Of a stretch of 64,000 nucleotides of DNA, positions 6,928 through 47,367 are shown one piece after another. The DNA comes from a virus. Taxonomy: Duplodnaviria > Caudoviricetes. Under the pieces are notes generated by a model. That model was not told the DNA's origin. It did no database searches and saw only the letters and a program-made list of their open reading frames with translations. A program made the translations under genes and the position numbers. The stretch is from IMG/VR virus record IMGVR_UViG_3300028832_000112, positions 41,681-105,680 of that record. One strand, given 5' to 3'. Within the stretch, counting starts at the first letter, position 1. Each line of letters starts with the position of its first letter.

Positions 6928-7692
6928 ATGGGAGAACTCAAACAAGCAGCTGGCATCAAGGTGGTACTCCAAGACCATTACGAAATGCCGAACCCACTTG
7001 AAACGACTTGCACCGTACTGTCATCGATCGGTATAAGCCCAGAATACTCACCGATGGCTGGCACGACGGAACTCTGGATCAACAGCGATGACGGTTCCTC
7101 GAAGTATGTTGGCTATCTTGACTTTATCCACGATTTGCCGACTGGTCGACGTAATCTCTGGGGTCACACCGACGGCGGCAAGGCGATGCAACTCCTGACT
7201 GATAAGGACATCTTTGAATTCAAGGATATTCTCATGGCAGAAAACAACATCCAAGACAACGACGCACTCGAAATCATCGTACAGTACCAGCACGAAGACA
7301 CCTACCGTCTCAAGGCTATCGAAAAGGGCAACTGGATCGACATGGCCGCCGACGAAGACGTGACTATCAAGGCTGGCGAACTCAAGCTCATCAACCTCGG
7401 AGTGGCTATGAAGCTTCCGGAAGGCTACGAAGGACACCTTGCCCCTCGTTCCTCCACGCTCAAGAAGTTCGGTGTGCTTCAGGCAAATTCAGTCGGCGTC
7501 GTCGACGATACATACTGTGGCCCTACAGACTGGTGGCGCTTCCCGGCATTCGCTACTCGCGATACCGAGATCAAGCGCGGCGAACGCATCTGCCAGTTCC
7601 GCATCATGGAAGTGCAGCCGAAGCTCCGCTTCACCGAAGGAAAGATGGTCGCCGAAGACCGAGGCGGATTCGGTTCCACCGGGACAAAGTAA
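6928..7692 (+). CDS. dut: dUTPase (trimeric type) with ~100-aa N-terminal extra domain; possible internal start at 7234
   Basis: WIDM, PRSS, GVVDDTYCG, RICQFRI, RGGFGSTG motifs. Confidence 0.9.
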   Translation: MGELKQAAGIKVVLQDHYEMPNPLETTCTVLSSIGISPEYSPMAGTTELWINSDDGSSKYVGYLDFIHDLPTGRRNLWGHTDGGKAMQLLTDKDIFEFKDILMAENNIQDNDALEIIVQYQHEDTYRLKAIEKGNWIDMAADEDVTIKAGELKLINLGVAMKLPEGYEGHLAPRSSTLKKFGVLQANSVGVVDDTYCGPTDWWRFPAFATRDTEIKRGERICQFRIMEVQPKLRFTEGKMVAEDRGGFGSTGTK

Positions 7693-7710
7693 TTGTTGTT
7701 AGTCCATACA

Positions 7711-7748
7711 AGATCGCCAGCGTCTGCTGGCGGTCTTTTTCATAAACT
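7711..7748 (+). terminator. Intrinsic terminator directly followed by ATAAACT
   Basis: GATCGCCAGC-GTCT-GCTGGCGGTC-TTTTTC-ATAAACT. Confidence 0.75.
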
Positions 7749-7754
7749 AGGGTC

Positions 7755-8045
7755 ATGCAAGCATTTCTCCACTCGATAGCTCCTTTCCTTGGCGGTTTCG
7801 GCTCGTTTCTCTTTGCGATCGTCAACGTTCCTATCATCGTAAAAATTTATATGCAGAAGTCCACAGAAGGGACTTCTTTGCTGTTTGTGCTGATGTCGTT
7901 CTTTGCGAACATCTGCTGCGGCATGTTCGTGCTGGACAACAACCTCACTACGGGCGTATGGCAGATTCCGCTTTATTGCAACTACGGATTCGCGTTCTGC
8001 TGTTGCTGCTGGATTCTGTACTTGTTCCATAAGTTCAAGAAATAG
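7755..8045 (+). CDS. PQ-loop/SemiSWEET-like small membrane protein
   Basis: Three TM helices; P.IVKIYMQKSTEGTS motif; PLYCNY. Confidence 0.7.
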   Translation: MQAFLHSIAPFLGGFGSFLFAIVNVPIIVKIYMQKSTEGTSLLFVLMSFFANICCGMFVLDNNLTTGVWQIPLYCNYGFAFCCCCWILYLFHKFKK

Positions 8046-8056
8046 AATAATTTATC

Positions 8057-10042
8057 ATGTGGAAATTCAAAACAAAAGGAACACTCCACATGTGTAATTA
8101 TCCAGAAGAATCCTCACGTCCATTGTCCACGATGGAATGCCAGAACGCCTTTGACCAGCTCGTCTCTGAGACGGAACAGCCCAAGGCAGATGCTAACTAT
8201 TCACCCGATCCTGAACGTATTGCTGATATTACTAATCAGTACAAGCTGTTTGCAAAGACATTGGAACCGAAGAAGTCCGACGATATGACCGACAACGAGC
8301 CGCTGCGCATTGTCGAGCGCAAGCCTACCGCCGATCCCCACTTCGACGAGATCAAGTTCAACCGTGAACCGACATTTGCCGAAGTGAAGCAGATGTGCAG
8401 TGACGAAGGCATGTCTATCGCAGACGAGACGATTCCTACTCTCACCAAGGAAACAATCGAAAAGGCTACAGAAGCGTTTGACGACGTGCCGACGGACGAA
8501 GCTGTGGACGTAGATCTGGACGAAGCTCCGGAAGAAGTCAACGAAGCTTCGAGCACCGAGTTCTTGGAAGAAGATGCGCCGGACGAAGGCGAAGAAGAAC
8601 CCAATCCGGTCAAGGAAGCTTTCGCGAAGGTCGCCAAGGAAGTCGACCAGCAGCTGAAGGACGAATGCGAAGGCAACTGCATCAAGTGCGACAACCATTG
8701 CCACGACAAGGTTGATGTGAAGGTGCCGTCCGAAAACGACAAGTTCAGAGCGTCATGCGCGATTGAGTTCTTGCACAAAAAAGAAATTGGCCAAGACAAT
8801 GTAGCTGACCACTTGGACGTTATTGACGATATCTATACGACGCTTACCGAAACACAGCTCAAGCTGGTAACGGATGAAGCTCCTTGGCTTACGGCGGTGT
8901 TCCAAGACGCCGATATTCGCAAGGCGGAACGCGAGAGCGCGGCGAGAAAAGAAGCCGAACTCGAAGCTGCCGATGAAAAGTCCAAGGCTCAAGCCGAACA
9001 GCTTACTAGCAAGCTCGAAGGAAAGACTGGCAACTGGGAAGCTGACGCACAGAAGGCCCAGTACGAGGCATGGACTGACCTAGTGAAGAAGTGGCCGACC
9101 TTGTCGAAGGATGTGCAAGACGTTCTTGAACGCATCCCTGGGTTCACCGCATTCCGAAACTACACGCAGTCCCAGATGAATTCTGAAGCATTCAAGCAGA
9201 AGATCGACTACGATCCGGAACAGACCGTGAAGGAAATGGCCAGAGCCCACGAGCTGGGAAACATTTCTGCCGCAGACGCCGCGAAGTTCATGGATGAACC
9301 AGACATGATCAGCAAGTTCGCTATGGGCAACAGTCCAGAATTCGACCAGCTGAACAAGGAACGCAACGAGTTCAGTACGAACAACTTCTCGAAGGCGACC
9401 AACATGTTCGAGAAGCTTCAGAATGACGGACATATTCCGCCGACGAACAAGGGTGCCGACCCTAGTCTGTTCTCAAATCAGACGTACCGCCAGTTCTGGA
9501 AGAATGCGCCTGAAGCTGAGCTCGGCAATACTCTTATCTTCGGCCCGACGCCTTGCATGTTCGATACGGTCAAGGACGGTAACGGTTTCGGAAAGGGTGA
9601 CTGCACGGTTGGCGATATCTTTGAACAAGAATACGCTCGCTCCAGGAAGGTTAATGCTAGTCATCCGATCGTCCAGCCGAAGAAGCCGCTGACCCCGGAA
9701 GAGTCCTTGGCGAACCTCATGACGGACTTGCCGAAGACGATGGTGAACAAGATTCTCGCCATTCCGAGTGACGACTGGAAGTTCAAGTTTGACGGTGAGG
9801 CGTTTGAACTTTGTTACAATGTCGCTTCTCGTACAATCCGCTTGTCGATGTTCAAGAAGAAGCTGGTGGACAGCGACCACTTGGGTAGCGTGTTCTCGTT
9901 GAGCTTCGTCAACGATGGCCCCGGCAGCGTTCAGTACAACCGTTCTTTCAACGCATTGAAGGATATCTCCGCCGCTGGCCCCAACGCAAAGCGTCTTTAC
10001 CAGTGGTTCGGTAAGATAATTGCAACATTCTTCAGCAAATAA
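8057..10042 (+). CDS. Large acidic hypothetical protein
   Basis: 661-aa ORF; acidic linker and CxxxCxxCxxHCH cluster; start may be at 8090. Confidence 0.8.
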   Translation: MWKFKTKGTLHMCNYPEESSRPLSTMECQNAFDQLVSETEQPKADANYSPDPERIADITNQYKLFAKTLEPKKSDDMTDNEPLRIVERKPTADPHFDEIKFNREPTFAEVKQMCSDEGMSIADETIPTLTKETIEKATEAFDDVPTDEAVDVDLDEAPEEVNEASSTEFLEEDAPDEGEEEPNPVKEAFAKVAKEVDQQLKDECEGNCIKCDNHCHDKVDVKVPSENDKFRASCAIEFLHKKEIGQDNVADHLDVIDDIYTTLTETQLKLVTDEAPWLTAVFQDADIRKAERESAARKEAELEAADEKSKAQAEQLTSKLEGKTGNWEADAQKAQYEAWTDLVKKWPTLSKDVQDVLERIPGFTAFRNYTQSQMNSEAFKQKIDYDPEQTVKEMARAHELGNISAADAAKFMDEPDMISKFAMGNSPEFDQLNKERNEFSTNNFSKATNMFEKLQNDGHIPPTNKGADPSLFSNQTYRQFWKNAPEAELGNTLIFGPTPCMFDTVKDGNGFGKGDCTVGDIFEQEYARSRKVNASHPIVQPKKPLTPEESLANLMTDLPKTMVNKILAIPSDDWKFKFDGEAFELCYNVASRTIRLSMFKKKLVDSDHLGSVFSLSFVNDGPGSVQYNRSFNALKDISAAGPNAKRLYQWFGKIIATFFSK

Positions 10043-39787: not shown

Positions 39788-40060
39788 ATGATCATTCGTT
39801 TGTTTGACTACGAACTGCGTATAAACGTGTCTCTCGTTAATACGAAGGCCAAGCTGTATTACATCCGCGCCACTTGGACGGACGGCACTGTCGGCTATTA
39901 CGGCATCGGGCAGAACGTCAAGGGCGACATCTGGTATCCGGTATGCAACAAGCAGTATGCCATGTGCTATTACCGCAAGGAAGCCAAGAAGCAGCTGAAG
40001 ATGCTGCGCTATCTGTTCCGCAAGGATACTTCGATGTCGCTTGCCTTAGAGGAAGTATGA
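39788..40060 (+). CDS. Hypothetical protein
   Basis: Operon context. Confidence 0.6.
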   Translation: MIIRLFDYELRINVSLVNTKAKLYYIRATWTDGTVGYYGIGQNVKGDIWYPVCNKQYAMCYYRKEAKKQLKMLRYLFRKDTSMSLALEEV

Positions 40061-40467
40061 AGTACGAATTTATCTTCAAGGTGTTCAAGGACTACTACTG
40101 TTCCAAGTACGTCCATTCGCATCTTGTAGGCTACTTCAGGAGCGAAGCCTCTGCCGATCGAGAAATTTCCTATCTGAAAAAGCACGAGTTCGAACTCGGT
40201 CACCGGGTCGAGTATCGTATTGAAAAGGAATCGGCTACTCTGTATCCGAACATGGTGGCCGACTGGGAGGCGGAAGACCGCGAGGCAGAACTAGAAGAAC
40301 AACGTGCATTCGCTCCTATTCCGCTTCCGAGAGTACGCAAGCGGTTTCCGTCCTTGCTGGCACAGTCGGCAATGGAATTCAATATCGAGGAGTTCCATCA
40401 AAAAACGGCGAACAACATGATGTCGTTCGTCCGTTCAATGCAAAAGCATCGCCGTCACCGCCGCTAG
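40057..40467 (+). CDS. Hypothetical with major-capsid Gol-like segment (paralog of 42698-43255)
   Basis: GYFRS domain; FAPIPLPRVRKRFPSLLAQ; RBS GAGGA. Confidence 0.7.
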   Translation: MKYEFIFKVFKDYYCSKYVHSHLVGYFRSEASADREISYLKKHEFELGHRVEYRIEKESATLYPNMVADWEAEDREAELEEQRAFAPIPLPRVRKRFPSLLAQSAMEFNIEEFHQKTANNMMSFVRSMQKHRRHRR

Positions 40468-41081
40468 CGAAGTATCTCCCGTTTTGTCGTGCTTTCATGT
40501 ACGAACTTGACCGCTTCCATGATGTAGCGAGTATAGACGGGAACTTTATCATTTAGTATCTTCACGACATCATCTTCTTCGAGGACGTCGGCCTTCAGTT
40601 CGCTCATTTTTGTCAACGAGGCCAGCTTGACCTTGTGGTTCTCGCTGCAATTCGCCACGTTTGGCGCAAGCAATCCGGACAGCACGACGGACGGCCCAGA
40701 AATGTAGAGCAGCGCGTTGTAAGGGTCGATCTCGACCGCTTTCACGTAATACGCCGTGCGGACGATTCCTTCATTCACCGCAATCCAGTGCTGCAGAAGA
40801 TCTCCGCTGATCGCTTGAAGGATCGGCGGTACACTTTGCTCCAACAGATTCTTGATGTCTTCTGGTTCGACGATCGATTCTTTCTGTTCTTCGCGTAGTT
40901 CCTTCATCAGCGTACACATCGCCGCCGACGGCGACGGAAATGCCGACAGCCGTTCAAGCAGTTCGTTCTTTTCGCAACTGAACGTGCATCGTACATTGTC
41001 CTTGAACTGACGGTAAAGTCGTTCGAAAGCGTCCAGCGCGACGTTGACGTCGTATGACATTAGGTTGAGTGGCGTTTCCAT
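40464..41081 (-). CDS. Hypothetical protein (coiled coil + beta domain family)
   Basis: RBS AAGGA. Confidence 0.7.
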   Translation of the reverse strand: METPLNLMSYDVNVALDAFERLYRQFKDNVRCTFSCEKNELLERLSAFPSPSAAMCTLMKELREEQKESIVEPEDIKNLLEQSVPPILQAISGDLLQHWIAVNEGIVRTAYYVKAVEIDPYNALLYISGPSVVLSGLLAPNVANCSENHKVKLASLTKMSELKADVLEEDDVVKILNDKVPVYTRYIMEAVKFVHESTTKREILR

Positions 41082-41959: not shown

Positions 41960-42364
41960 TTACTCGTTGAGTTCATACGGGTTTTCGTAGCTTTCGTCAC
42001 CGTGGTACAAGCGCAGCCAGCGAAGGGTTTCTTCCATGTCGACGTCAGGATAGTACTTCTTCCACGTATCGTATGCGTCCAGCGGCTTGTCTGGCTTCGT
42101 GCGTCTGGCGCATTCCCAGTCGAGGGCGGCTTCGAACTTGTTCTTGATGTCGCCGTTGCGGTAGTGGTGGCCAGACCATGCTAGGTGGAGCTTCTTGGTC
42201 AGCTTGAGACCGAGGATCGGATAGAGGATTATCTTGTCCATGTCGTGAAACGGAAAGTAGAATCCCTTGTACAAGGCAAGCTGGTTCAGTGCCTTGCGAT
42301 GGGCCCACGTGTACTTGACATGGTCGATTCGTGCTTTGAAGATATTATTGATTGTCTTGAACAT
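41960..42364 (-). CDS. HD-like (DUF5662-type) protein, leaderless
   Basis: H..Y...HRK, HDMDK, HH, DWECAR.TKPDKPLDAY. Confidence 0.7.
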   Translation of the reverse strand: MFKTINNIFKARIDHVKYTWAHRKALNQLALYKGFYFPFHDMDKIILYPILGLKLTKKLHLAWSGHHYRNGDIKNKFEAALDWECARRTKPDKPLDAYDTWKKYYPDVDMEETLRWLRLYHGDESYENPYELNE

Positions 42365-42371
42365 GTCACCA

Positions 42372-42415
42372 AATATAGCAAATAAATTGACTTGTGTAAT
42401 TGTTTTTGCTATATT
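42372..42415. promoter_or_regulatory. Interlocked divergent leaderless promoters
   Basis: Plus TTGACT(42387)-N17-TATATT; minus ATTACA-N17-TATATT; both ATGs 7 nt downstream. Confidence 0.8.
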
Positions 42416-42422
42416 TGCTTGC

Positions 42423-42698
42423 ATGAATAAGAACTTCTGGATATTCTTTCTACGATACTTATGGGGTTGCTGCATCTCCTTTCTGTCGATGGCGTTCGTG
42501 ATTTTATACGGAATTGCGTGGCTGGCTACGGTGCTGATGATTGCGGTCGCCGTCGTGCCCGATCTGATCGGCCAAGGACTTCGCTGGCTAATCTGCAGCA
42601 TATACAGATTCTTTGGGCCGACTTGCCGCGAAGGCGAGGACTTGAGGAATCCGTTGTCTCGATTCAGTAAATGGTTTCTGGAAAAGGTTAAGCTCTGA
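42423..42698 (+). CDS. Small membrane protein (leaderless)
   Basis: Hydrophobic; start fixed by promoter. Confidence 0.65.
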   Translation: MNKNFWIFFLRYLWGCCISFLSMAFVILYGIAWLATVLMIAVAVVPDLIGQGLRWLICSIYRFFGPTCREGEDLRNPLSRFSKWFLEKVKL

Positions 42699-43255
42699 TG
42701 GGTGTAAAAATTATAGAATACAAGGGAGCCAAGCTCCACTACAAGGAACGCTGCTACGAGCTTTACCGTATCTATCCTAGCGGCAAGGAATGGTTCTGCG
42801 GCTACTTCCGTAGTCAAGAAGACTACGAGATCGAGCTGGCTCGCTGCAAGAACGAGGAAGCTGGCCCAGATGAATATGTCATCAAGGAAGTTCCTTCCGC
42901 TGGTATTCCTGTAGCCAAGATACACGACGTCGTCGAGGAGCGCAAGCGCCGCAACAAGGAAGCACGACAACGAGCCATCGAAGCCAGAAAGTGGGCCGAA
43001 GAGCGCAAGAAACTCATAGCAGACTGGGAACGCGAGGAGCGCGAATGGCGCGAGAAGCATCCCGGCCAAGCAAGACGGCTGATCGACCGTAGGTTTCCTC
43101 CGCTGTTCGATTGTCATGCGCTTCCGCCAGTTTGCACAACCCCAGACGGCATCTACAAGGCGCTTCGGTATCTTTATCCGGACTCCGTCAAGAAGTTCGT
43201 TAAGTCGACCGACTTTGCCAAGACGATCAAACCTCGTAGGAGGAAGAAACGATGA
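42698..43255 (+). CDS. Hypothetical with major-capsid Gol-like segment
   Basis: GYFRS domain, charged helix, LIDRRFPPLF...TPDGIYKALRYLY. Confidence 0.75.
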   Translation: MGVKIIEYKGAKLHYKERCYELYRIYPSGKEWFCGYFRSQEDYEIELARCKNEEAGPDEYVIKEVPSAGIPVAKIHDVVEERKRRNKEARQRAIEARKWAEERKKLIADWEREEREWREKHPGQARRLIDRRFPPLFDCHALPPVCTTPDGIYKALRYLYPDSVKKFVKSTDFAKTIKPRRRKKR

Positions 43256-43725
43256 GCAGTGCTGGAATAGCGGCGGCGAACTGTGCGCTTGCGGCCATAC
43301 ATGCGCAGAAACGCCGAGCGGAAGAGGAAGCGGAAGAGGCTGCCAAGAAGTCGAACGGCAATCCGGAGCGGCATAACTGGTATGCTTCCTATAACGAGAG
43401 GATTGCTCAAGCTGGGTCGATGATTTCTGGTATCGACAAGGAAATCCAGAATGAAACGGATCCCCACATGATCGAGTTCTTGAACATGCGCAAGGAATAC
43501 TGGGAGCGACAAGCGAAATCGTCCATGCGTCAGCGCGACCAGATGATTAAGTGGGAACATGAACGCTGGGAACGAGAACGCAAGGAGATGGAACGGTTCC
43601 ATCGTATACAAGCAATCGTCGACCCGATCGTTAATGTTGGATTTTGGATACTGGGGATTGGTAGTTTGTTTGGAATCGGTGTATTTATTTACTTTATGTT
43701 GAGGCCACTATGGACACACCTATAA
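43252..43725 (+). CDS. Hypothetical coiled-coil protein with C-terminal TM
   Basis: RBS AGGAGG. Confidence 0.7.
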   Translation: MSSAGIAAANCALAAIHAQKRRAEEEAEEAAKKSNGNPERHNWYASYNERIAQAGSMISGIDKEIQNETDPHMIEFLNMRKEYWERQAKSSMRQRDQMIKWEHERWERERKEMERFHRIQAIVDPIVNVGFWILGIGSLFGIGVFIYFMLRPLWTHL

Positions 43726-45703: not shown

Positions 45704-46321
45704 ATGAAGAACACGTTAATAGTTAACTTGTACGGTGGCCCAGGGACAGGCAAGTCGAGCGGCGCTGCATACATCTTCTCGAAGCTGAAGATGGCTGGTA
45801 TCGACGCGGAATACGTGACCGAGTTCGCGAAGGACAAGGTCTGGGAGAACAACATAGAGGCGTTCAAGTGCCAGTTCTACATTTCTGGCAAGCAATCGTT
45901 CCGTATATCACGCTGCTTCGGCAAGGTCGATGTAATCATCACCGACTCACCGATCGTATTGGGCAAGATATACGCCGATTTGATTGGCCGTCCGCAGCTC
46001 GGATTAGCTTGTCTGGAAGAGGCTGACCAGTATCCGGCTGGCAGTACGATCGAAATCTTCTTGAGACGAGTGAAGCCGTATAATACCAATGGCCGCAACC
46101 AGACAGAGGAAGAGGCCAAGAAGATCGACGAGACGGTCAAGGAGCTATTGAGGGAACGCTCTAAGACCAAGCATTACGATGTGATGGAGTATGACGGCGA
46201 CCAAGAAGGTTACGACCGTATTTACCTATTCATCAAGGATTTGCTGGAAACTCGCGAATTGGTGCGTGTCGAAGGCGAACGCCATTCTAAGGAATGGGCC
46301 GACATAGGAGCATGCGGATGA
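45704..46321 (+). CDS. AAA_28/NadR-like P-loop kinase
   Basis: GGPGTGKS, EFAKD, ITDSP, GRNQTEEEA. Confidence 0.8.
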   Translation: MKNTLIVNLYGGPGTGKSSGAAYIFSKLKMAGIDAEYVTEFAKDKVWENNIEAFKCQFYISGKQSFRISRCFGKVDVIITDSPIVLGKIYADLIGRPQLGLACLEEADQYPAGSTIEIFLRRVKPYNTNGRNQTEEEAKKIDETVKELLRERSKTKHYDVMEYDGDQEGYDRIYLFIKDLLETRELVRVEGERHSKEWADIGACG

Positions 46322-46547: not shown

Positions 46548-47003
46548 TTACTTGCCGTAGCCTTCCGGCATCGGCTGTTCTTCGATGATGACCGTCATTG
46601 GCTTGTTCATAGCACGTACTCGCTCGATATTGCACTTCACGCCGTACGAGTAGCCGTTCCAGAAGGCGATTGCCTCGTCGCACTCGTTGCACATGGCCTT
46701 GTCCTTCACTTGGTAGAAGTCCTCGCCAGTCTTGCCTTGCGATTCAGCCCACATGGACTTTACGCTGGGGAACTCGCACTTGCGCGGCTTCTCGGTGGAA
46801 CAGTAGACCGTCACGTCGGAGAAGCCGTTCTTCTTGAGGTACATCTGAGCCAAGTGGTCGATACCGAAGCAGTCGCCCACTATCACTCGTACGTCCCTCT
46901 GCATGAGGGCGTCGAGGCACTTCTTCATTTCGTCGTTGAGCTTCTTGATGCGTGACGAACCGGAAATGAACACGGTCGTCTTGTGCGGTGCCAAGTTAAT
47001 CAT
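46548..47003 (-). CDS. SLOG-superfamily protein
   Basis: VFISGS, IVGDC.GID..AQ.YL, KDKAM, AFWNG.S.G. Confidence 0.75.
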   Translation of the reverse strand: MINLAPHKTTVFISGSSRIKKLNDEMKKCLDALMQRDVRVIVGDCFGIDHLAQMYLKKNGFSDVTVYCSTEKPRKCEFPSVKSMWAESQGKTGEDFYQVKDKAMCNECDEAIAFWNGYSYGVKCNIERVRAMNKPMTVIIEEQPMPEGYGK

Positions 47004-47367
47004 TGTTCGTATTCCATTCCTTCGAGTCGGCGAAGTACGGAGCCATCTGCTGTACTTCGTAGCACATCGGACGGTCGTTTTCCGACGCATTCTTTTTGCA
47101 CTGGTTGTAGTATTCCGGGTCGTAGCGTCGAGCATGCTTGCGGAATCTGAGATAGAAGATTTCCACGAGAAGCTGGTACGCATGCATGCCGTCCTTGCCC
47201 TGCTTTTTCTTGACGCCGATCTGGTAGTTCAAGCAGCGGCTGAGCTTCTTCGGATTTTCTTCTTGGAGATACTTGGAGCACTGCTCGTACTGTCCGCACA
47301 TGAGCAACTTGCCGATTTTGCCGAGCGGTTCCATGTCTGGTTTGAAAAGGAAAGAAAAGAGTCCCAT
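46996..47367 (-). CDS. Hypothetical protein
   Basis: RBS GAGG; behind promoter. Confidence 0.65.
   Translation of the reverse strand: MGLFSFLFKPDMEPLGKIGKLLMCGQYEQCSKYLQEENPKKLSRCLNYQIGVKKKQGKDGMHAYQLLVEIFYLRFRKHARRYDPEYYNQCKKNASENDRPMCYEVQQMAPYFADSKEWNTNND

What the first reader, a model, noticed from the sequence alone, without database searches (positions are those of the whole stretch)
43079..43180. Early protein ending in a major-capsid Gol-peptide-like segment
Seen: the 185-aa protein at 42698-43255 contains LIDRRFPPLFDCHALPPVCTTPDGIYKALRYLY after a small GYFRS domain and a charged helix, and sits behind an early promoter. Established (sequence recalled from memory): this is colinear with the conserved T4 gp23 stretch MVRRAIPNLIAFDICGVQPMNSPTGQVFALRAVY, sharing R..(I/F)P.L, P.G and ALR..Y. 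That stretch includes the Gol peptide (about residues 94-122), which binds EF-Tu and triggers the Lit anti-phage protease. Inference: the phage has grafted the immune-sensed part of its capsid protein onto a small early carrier, as a decoy or inhibitor of capsid-sensing defences or as an EF-Tu-binding effector.
Basis: partly seen in the sequence, partly recalled or inferred. Interest (0 to 1): 0.85.

Follow-up and report, generated by a model that had tools for sequence, protein, structure and literature searches.

The report
Capsid "Gol" peptide copied onto small phage protein
A small accessory protein of an uncultured giant cattle-gut phage ends in a genuine, selectively kept copy of the most conserved stretch of the phage lineage's own head protein (the T4 "Gol" stretch, which binds host EF-Tu). 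I found this design in no paper, and what the copy binds is untested.

Summary
The 185-aa ORF at 42698-43255 (+) is a real gene with 10 close and about 10 distant homologues, all in jumbo-phage contigs.

- **T4 match alone:** correct in register but not significant (BLASTP E 0.065; 28% of shuffles do as well).
- **Lineage's own capsid protein:** a complete 419-kb relative has a T4-type (Gp23-family) capsid protein, and its Gol-equivalent stretch matches residues 125-168 of the small protein. BLASTP gives E 2e-8, hhalign E 4e-11. An HMM built only from the small proteins' tails scores 40-52 bits on the clade's capsid proteins, 12 bits on T4-like gp23, and at most 5.4 bits on 2,280 shuffles.
- **Tag anatomy:** two motifs are the slowest-evolving part of the family. 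The linker between them, invariant in the capsid protein, drifts freely.
- **Other carriers:** a window paralogue (40057-40467) keeps motif 1. An unrelated 215-aa protein in the relative also ends in the tag.
- **Carrier and expression:** the carrier domain has no known fold. The gene follows a sigma-70-like promoter that recurs 21 times in the window.
- **Function:** untested. My best guess is a docking or competitor peptide for whatever reads the unfolded capsid stretch, with EF-Tu first.

This scan has noted similar detached Gol copies on other phage DNA. I found no paper describing them.

The parts
42387..42415 (+). Sigma-70-like promoter (TTGACT, 17-nt spacer, extended -10 TGCTATATT) that drives the operon. 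Its mirror copy on the minus strand lies at 42372-42380.
   Evidence: Consensus scan scores 10/12 with TG. The 9-mer occurs 21 times in the window against 0.19 expected.
42423..42698 (+). First gene of the operon: a 91-aa hydrophobic (membrane-like) protein. Its ATG lies 7 nt after the -10 box (leaderless layout). Its TGA stop overlaps the target's ATG (TGATG).
   Evidence: Read directly from the sequence. No Pfam family.
42698..43255 (+). Target gene, 185 aa (P0001).
   Evidence: 10 homologues at 61-91% identity in jumbo-phage contigs of up to 467 kb. Further relatives down to about 31% identity. No Pfam or PHROG family.
42698..42928 (+). N-terminal beta-rich carrier domain (residues 1-77, contains GYFRS).
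   Evidence: AlphaFold2 gives strands 2-6, 18-25, 31-37 and 59-66 plus helix 40-53, with pLDDT 75-89. No fold match and nothing in the ESM Atlas.
42929..43060 (+). Long charged helix (residues 78-121) ending in a conserved KHP.
   Evidence: AlphaFold2 helix 78-120, pLDDT 82-86. It is the least conserved ordered part of the protein.
43073..43180 (+). Capsid-derived tag (residues 126-161), homologous to capsid protein residues 66-106 of the clade, which correspond to T4 gp23 about 95-131.
   Evidence: BLASTP E 2e-8. hhalign E 4.2e-11. Tail-only HMM scores 40-52 bits on clade capsid proteins against at most 5.4 bits on shuffles. Register on T4 gp23 confirmed. pLDDT is 54-64, so the tag is probably unstructured when alone.
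43079..43108 (+). Motif 1 of the tag (residues 128-137, RRxFPxL type). It corresponds to T4 gp23 99-107, the centre of the Gol peptide.
   Evidence: Mean pairwise identity is 63% across the divergent family, the highest of any region. It is kept in the members I read whose tails lack motif 2 (P0018, P0020, P0022) and in the window paralogue.
43139..43180 (+). Motif 2 of the tag (residues 148-161, PxG...ALRxLY type). It corresponds to T4 gp23 120-131.
   Evidence: Mean pairwise identity is 60%, against 23% for the linker between the motifs. Several family members end right after it.
43181..43252 (+). Basic C-terminal tail, present only in the closer relatives.
   Evidence: Alignments A1 and A2.
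40057..40467 (+). Distant paralogue (136 aa) with the same N-domain and, at 40306-40365, only the first half (motif 1) of the capsid-like tag.
   Evidence: N-domain against family profile: hhalign E 1.2e-7, probability 94%. Half-tag against capsid profile: E 9e-4, probability 23%, which is weak. BLASTP to P0001 gives E 0.003 and 0.012 in colinear pieces.

Best explanation
Shown: this is a family of small accessory proteins of a rumen/gut jumbo-phage lineage that has a T4-type capsid. Each member joins a small carrier (a beta-rich domain plus a long charged helix) to a flexible C-terminal tag. The tag is a selected copy of the lineage's own capsid N-arm/Gol stretch.

Inferred: the tag works as a docking peptide that imitates the unfolded or nascent capsid protein. 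It would bring the carrier to, or compete for, whatever reads that stretch before the capsid protein folds. By analogy with T4, the first candidate is host EF-Tu (domains II-III), possibly with hand-over to GroEL. Because the gene is expressed from a host-type promoter, the protein would occupy or divert that partner before the capsid protein is made in bulk. Whether this pre-empts a Gol-reading defence, tunes translation or helps folding is not decided.
For: - **Homology to the cognate capsid stretch:**, with the T4 register confirmed.
- **Selection pattern:** the two motifs are the slowest-evolving part of the family (63% and 60% identity, against 47% for the N-domain and 36% for the helix). 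The linker, invariant in capsid proteins, drops to 23%. Selection therefore acts on a bipartite linear epitope, not on the capsid fold.
- **Residues kept:** they are the ones shared from T4 to this clade, which points to a partner as universal as the capsid family.
- **Unfolded-state epitope:** motif 2 lies beyond L106, the first residue ordered in the T4 prohead (PMC9546572), and is predicted as a strand in the capsid model (low confidence). It would be exposed as a linear peptide only in the unfolded protein, and the tag itself is predicted floppy.
- **Portability:** an unrelated 215-aa protein of the relative also ends in the tag (capsid-only HMM E 2.7e-5).
- **Literature:** the Gol stretch binds EF-Tu domains II-III and is the most conserved part of gp23 (PMC3014915). 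The gp23 N-terminus steers fusion proteins to GroEL (PMC3012670).
- **Expression context:** sigma-70-like recurrent promoter and a non-structural neighbourhood.
Against: - No binding partner was or could be tested here; no complex prediction was available.
- EF-Tu is extremely abundant, so titrating it with a small protein is stoichiometrically hard.
- A faithful Gol mimic should activate, not block, a Lit-type protease.
- The host is unknown, and no Lit family member was seen in the phage records (the controls did not ring).
- Early timing is inferred from a promoter motif only, and the relative G001 does not share that motif.
- An earlier check in this scan of a similar case on other DNA priced the mimicry reading at only 13/100.
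- The capsid model is of low confidence (pLDDT 51).
Confidence: 0.38

Rival explanations
1. Head-directed tag. The copied N-arm stretch binds what the capsid protein's N-arm binds inside the prohead (scaffold core, portal or neighbouring capsid subunits). The carrier would then be loaded into heads as cargo to be ejected, or would modulate assembly, in the manner of the T4 capsid-targeting sequence or encapsulin cargo-loading peptides.
For: In T4, residues before L106 are disordered inside the prohead and are thought to touch the scaffold. Met98 contacts the portal (PMC9546572). The tag is terminal, floppy and portable between carriers. The close relatives carry a basic tail, as DNA-associated internal proteins do.
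Against: Motif 2, which is as conserved as motif 1 in the small proteins, is part of the folded core in the capsid protein. It would not be available as a scaffold-binding epitope there. The gene sits among non-structural genes, 188 kb from the capsid gene in G001, and behind a host-type promoter. No prohead-protease-type site was evident on reading the sequence.
Confidence: 0.2
2. Direct immune decoy. The tag binds a host sensor that recognises the capsid stretch itself (not through EF-Tu) without activating it. This would blind capsid-sensing defence before late gene expression. It may be part of a wider set of mimic proteins in this genome.
For: The copied stretch is the one known peptide-level capsid trigger (Gol/Lit; PMC3014915). 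Many defence systems sense capsid proteins (bioRxiv 2026.01.04.697583). The gene is accessory and probably expressed early. Scan notes report a dead terminase ATPase copy in the same window (unchecked here).
Against: Known capsid sensors such as Avs7 envelop the whole folded protein, not a 40-aa peptide. Showing the trigger early would more simply set off abortive infection. No sensor or host is known here.
Confidence: 0.15
3. The tag is an old captured capsid fragment that now serves only as an internal structural piece of the small protein, or has no function. It shares no partner with the capsid protein.
For: No function is shown. AlphaFold2 places short helices in the tag. Several distant members lack motif 2.
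Against: The motifs are the best-conserved part of a family that has diverged to about 31% identity, and they keep precisely the residues conserved in capsid proteins. The tag recurs on an unrelated carrier.
Confidence: 0.1
4. Chance resemblance of a short proline/arginine-rich segment to gp23.
For: Against T4 gp23 alone the match is not significant.
Against: E 2e-8, 4.2e-11 and 8e-15 against the lineage's own capsid protein, at the homologous position, with shuffled controls at no more than 5.4 bits.
Confidence: 0.01

Closest known systems
Gol region of T4 gp23 in the Gol / EF-Tu / Lit (e14) exclusion system
   Same: It is the same homologous stretch of a Gp23-family capsid protein (register confirmed). 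In T4 a 29-residue peptide from it is active on its own and binds EF-Tu domains II-III (PMC3014915).
   Different: Here the stretch is encoded a second time, outside the capsid gene, on a small accessory protein made by the phage itself. Only two flanking motifs are conserved. EF-Tu binding and protease activation are untested, and no Lit homologue or host is known.
N-terminus of T4 gp23 as a GroEL-directing signal (Snyder and Tarkowski 2005, as cited in PMC3012670)
   Same: A portable part of the capsid N-terminus that carries its property over to fusion partners.
   Different: Those fusions were made in the laboratory, whereas here the fusion is natural. Whether the tag reaches a chaperonin is unknown. 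No phage GroEL or GroES was detected in G000 or G001.
T4 capsid-targeting sequence of internal proteins, and encapsulin C-terminal cargo-loading peptides
   Same: A short, terminal, disordered peptide on otherwise unrelated carriers that could direct them to an HK97-fold shell.
   Different: Those peptides do not resemble the shell protein itself. The T4 signal is N-terminal and is cut off by the prohead protease. This gene lies in a non-structural region behind a host-type promoter.
Phage anti-defence proteins that act by mimicry or by competing with the trigger (e.g. the DNA mimic Ocr, or DSAD1 against the tail-tube sensor DSR2; PMC11087589)
   Same: A small accessory protein, likely expressed before the late trigger protein, that could compete for a sensor.
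   Different: Those proteins mimic DNA or simply bind the sensor. None is reported to carry a sequence copy of the phage's own trigger protein (literature searches).

Membership tests
Gp23-family major capsid protein (Pfam PF07068) | Full-length match to the Gp23 profile (HK97-type fold of about 450 aa). | tested here: not met
   No Pfam family for P0001 or any of 11 family members at E up to 10. PF07068 finds nothing in the 105.7-kb contig. Similarity is confined to 44 columns. The protein is not a capsid protein.
Gol region of gp23 (sequence sense) | Colinear homology to the capsid stretch equivalent to T4 gp23 about 94-131. | tested here: met
   with the T4 register.
Gol peptide (functional sense) | Binds EF-Tu domains II-III. 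| not testable with these tools
   No complex prediction or binding assay is available. This rests on analogy with T4 (PMC3014915).
Gol peptide (functional sense) | Activates the Lit (Peptidase_U49) protease to cut EF-Tu. | not testable with these tools
   The host is unknown. PF10463 is absent from the two phage records, but the control genomes did not ring either, so the search says nothing.
T4-type internal protein with capsid-targeting sequence | N-terminal targeting peptide removed at an L/I-x-E site by the prohead protease, with late expression. | tested here: inconclusive
   The tag is C-terminal, and no such site was seen before it on reading the sequence. The promoter is host-type. 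No virion proteome exists.
Small GYFRS-domain family of this phage lineage (undescribed) | N-terminal beta-rich domain, charged helix, KHP, then capsid-like motif 1 (with or without motif 2). | tested here: met
   Alignments A1 and A2. The paralogue matches the N-domain at E 1.2e-7.

The most novel reading that the evidence does not exclude
T4-type jumbo phages make early 'self-mimic' proteins that display the nascent-capsid (Gol) peptide on small carriers. These would occupy EF-Tu or a Gol-reading sensor before the capsid protein appears. That would be an anti-defence or host-takeover class built by copying the phage's own molecular pattern, and it would explain why this stretch is the most conserved part of gp23.
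Probability: 0.17. Interest if true: 0.9.

Novelty: categorically new. Interest (0 to 1): 0.72.

Why it matters
The Gol stretch is the oldest known example of a phage capsid peptide that a bacterial defence reads. Why it is the most conserved part of T4-type capsid proteins, and why it binds EF-Tu, has never been settled.

A natural, selected, detached copy on small accessory proteins gives a direct handle on that question. The two conserved motifs mark the residues that matter outside the capsid fold, and the protein is small enough to express, pull down and co-fold.

If the tag proves to be a competitor for EF-Tu or for a sensor, it defines a new way for phages to deal with pattern recognition. 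If it proves to be a head-loading tag, it is a new cargo signal for large T4-type capsids. Either way it is a portable 40-residue module with a testable partner.

Tried and rejected
**Searches that found nothing**
- Pfam and PHROGs on the protein, the family and 14 neighbours or related ORFs gave nothing informative.
- megablast and tblastn against 50,697 deposited phage genomes found no match for the locus or the protein.
- The family profile against PDB sequences gave no capsid hit, only a coiled-coil-like DnaK match at E 0.86.
- Foldseek and VIA-align on the model matched only the long helix, best Z 5.2. The ESM Atlas gave nothing.
- A region-restricted protein search for other carriers returned only family members.
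- tblastn of the clade's capsid stretch against deposited phages returned one place per record. Nearly all listed hits lie under an annotated capsid gene and the rest in unannotated or unnamed ORFs, so I saw no detached copy at that sensitivity.
- No phage EF-Tu, GroEL or GroES was found in G000 or G001.

**Steps that were blocked or uninformative**
- This phage's own capsid gene is not on the 105.7-kb contig.
- The genome search cannot reach metagenome records. The 80 capsid loci fetched from metagenomes could therefore not be scanned for further carriers or paired for covariation.
- The capsid AlphaFold2 model is poor (pLDDT 51.5) and was used only for secondary structure.
- The promoter 9-mer is not enriched in G001, so promoter class could not be compared with that of the capsid gene.
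- The original Gol papers (PMC19665 and the JBC 2000 DOI) are not held. The 13 critical Gol residues could not be compared with the conserved tag residues.

**Weak evidence and one rejected ORF**
- RNA-library contigs of relatives cover 42696-43292. Contigs in an RNA library do not prove transcription.
- I rejected the 385-aa minus-strand ORF 41960-43117 as a rival gene. Its real start is the ATG at 42364, 7 nt after the minus-strand promoter copy.

Full report
**What is there.** The window is the right-hand 64 kb of a 105,680-bp IMG/VR virus contig that CheckV rates 26% complete, which implies a genome near 400 kb.

It is the second gene of a small operon:
- A sigma-70-like promoter (TTGACT, 17 nt, TATATT, extended -10) lies at 42387-42415.
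- The ATG of a 91-aa hydrophobic ORF follows 7 nt after the -10 box, at 42423.
- That ORF's TGA stop overlaps the target's ATG.

The 9-mer TGCTATATT occurs 21 times in the window against 0.19 expected. A mirror copy at 42372-42380 serves the divergent gene. The long minus-strand ORF that overlaps the target is therefore an artefact upstream of that gene's true start at 42364.

The neighbours have no recognisable function, apart from an AAA_28 / thymidylate-kinase-like protein and a GTP-binding-domain protein further downstream. The DNA is found in bovine and other animal gut metagenomes.

**Check of the observation.**
- The recalled T4 stretch is exact.
- 28% of shuffled queries reach the same local score.
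- No Pfam family is hit, and the family profile finds no capsid chain in the PDB.

Taken alone, the T4 resemblance would have been dismissed.

**The decisive evidence.** The protein has 10 close homologues in contigs of up to 467 kb and further relatives down to about 31% identity. One homologue lies in a complete, terminally repeated 419,423-bp phage genome (G001). That genome encodes a single Gp23-family capsid protein (PF07068 E 2e-65; 496 aa, P0024).

Residues 66-110 of P0024 align with residues 125-168 of the small protein:
- BLASTP gives 20/45 identities and E 2e-8. G001's own small protein gives E 3e-7.
- The small-protein family profile (A2) against a 24-member capsid-clade profile (A3) gives probability 97.2% and E 4.2e-11, over exactly those columns and nowhere else.
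- An HMM built only from the 11 small-protein tails scores 40-52 bits on the main group of clade capsid proteins, always at residues about 67-106. More divergent members score 22-31 bits and distant Gp23 relatives 6-14 bits. The T4-like gp23 scores 12.2 bits at residues 98-131. The maximum over 2,280 shuffled capsid sequences is 5.4 bits.
- Against all 6,457 stop-to-stop ORFs of both phage genomes, that HMM ranks the capsid protein first after the small proteins themselves (E 8e-15).
- Conversely, a capsid-only HMM recovers the small proteins at E 1e-5 to 3e-4.
- The clade capsid profile matches T4 gp23 structures (6UZC, 7VS5, 5VF3) at E 7e-81 and lays this stretch on gp23 residues about 92-134.

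The tag is therefore a true homologue of the Gol stretch. It was copied from, or is kept like, the lineage's own capsid protein.

**Anatomy of the tag.** Among the 11 divergent members that carry it, mean pairwise identity by region is:

| Region | Residues | Mean identity |
|---|---|---|
| Motif 1 (RRxFPxL type) | 128-137 | 63% |
| Motif 2 (PxG...ALRxLY type) | 148-161 | 60% |
| N-domain | 1-77 | 47% |
| Charged helix | 78-121 | 36% |
| Linker between motifs | 138-147 | 23% |

In capsid proteins that same linker is almost invariant. The residues kept in the small proteins are those shared by capsid proteins from T4 to this clade. Several members stop right after motif 2. Others (P0018, P0020, P0022) keep motif 1 only.

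Two further carriers exist:
- A 136-aa paralogue in the window (40057-40467). It shares the N-domain (hhalign E 1.2e-7) and has a motif-1-like half tag, whose match is weak (E 9e-4).
- An unrelated 215-aa protein 3 kb away from the small gene in G001. It ends in KHP plus the tag (capsid-only HMM E 2.7e-5; hhalign E 2.3e-4).

The tag thus behaves as a portable C-terminal module.

**The carrier.** AlphaFold2 (11 sequences, mean pLDDT 74.7) gives a small beta-rich domain and a 43-residue helix at good confidence. The tag has pLDDT 54-64, so it is probably unstructured on its own. Neither Foldseek, VIA-align nor the ESM Atlas finds a related fold.

**How it most likely works.**
- *Shown:* the homology, the selection on two motifs, the portability, and the recurrent host-type promoter.
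- *From the literature:* the Gol stretch is the most conserved part of gp23 and binds EF-Tu domains II-III, and 29 residues suffice (PMC3014915). The gp23 N-terminus steers fusion proteins to GroEL (PMC3012670). In the T4 prohead, residues before L106 are disordered inside the shell and later form the N-arm (PMC9546572).
- *Inferred:* motif 2 is part of the folded core of the capsid protein, yet it is conserved in a floppy tail whose linker drifts. The tail therefore imitates the unfolded or nascent capsid stretch, not the assembled one. That favours partners that meet the capsid protein before folding (EF-Tu, chaperonin, or a sensor of the EF-Tu-peptide complex) over partners inside the prohead.

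I therefore rank the readings as follows:

| Reading | Confidence |
|---|---|
| Docking or competitor peptide for EF-Tu and associated factors | 0.38 |
| Head-directed tag | 0.20 |
| Direct sensor decoy | 0.15 |
| Tag with no shared partner | 0.10 |
| Chance resemblance | 0.01 |

There are cautions. A faithful Gol mimic should switch a Lit-type protease on, EF-Tu is hard to titrate, and the host is unknown. An earlier check in this scan on similar DNA priced the mimicry reading low.

**Comparison with what is known, and novelty.** The protein is not a capsid protein; the membership test was not met. It carries the Gol stretch in the sequence sense, and its Gol function could not be tested.

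I found no paper describing phage accessory proteins that carry a copy of their own capsid peptide. I saw no detached copy in deposited phage genomes at tblastn sensitivity.

Notes of this scan report the same design on other phage DNA (51 notes in at least 43 genomes) and on this genome's paralogue. Those are unchecked leads, not independent support. Of them I verified only the paralogue, the promoter layout and the GroEL citation.

**Limits.**
- This phage's own capsid gene is not on the contig.
- Metagenome records could not be searched whole.
- The capsid model is poor.
- RNA-library contigs covering the gene do not prove transcription or timing.

Noticed in passing
window, 21 sites (e.g. 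6893, 18094, 37366, 42407, 47432, 55520, 61769 on +; 4796, 18048, 37340, 42380, 47406 on -): The extended -10 element TGCTATATT recurs 21 times against 0.19 expected, often as back-to-back divergent pairs about 30 nt apart. At this locus both flanking genes start 7 nt after the -10 box, which suggests leaderless mRNAs.
   Followed up: partly
L002:13891-14538 (= G001:C1 about 7501-8145, minus strand): A 215-aa protein of the 419-kb relative has an unrelated N-terminal part but ends in KHP plus the same capsid-like tag (capsid-only HMM E 2.7e-5). It has no Pfam family and no homologue in the 105.7-kb contig.
   Followed up: partly
window 40057-40467 (+): A 136-aa paralogue of the target with the same N-domain. 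It keeps only the first motif of the capsid-like tag and ends in a basic tail. It converges on the minus-strand gene 40464-41081.
   Followed up: partly
L105-L184 (metagenome loci): The capsid clade is common in rumen/gut and some sediment or freshwater metagenomes, on contigs of 200-432 kb. The nearest cultured phages are only about 30% identical in the capsid protein. The lineage is large and wholly uncultured.
   Followed up: no
window 45704-46321 (+) and 46548-47183 (-): An AAA_28 / thymidylate-kinase-like protein (Pfam E 2e-11, PHROG E 8e-13) and a GTP-binding-domain protein (PHROG 289, E 1.5e-10) are the only neighbours with any family match.
   Followed up: no
window 42696-43292: Contigs from two bovine-gut metatranscriptome libraries of one study, 90-95% identical, cover most of the target gene including the tag. 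The listed variants fall mostly on third codon positions (8 of 10 within the gene).
   Followed up: partly
L002:7540-8211: A DNA methyltransferase-like ORF (NPPY motif) sits near the small gene, at the left end of the terminally repeated genome of G001. The small gene lies only about 12 kb from that end.
   Followed up: no
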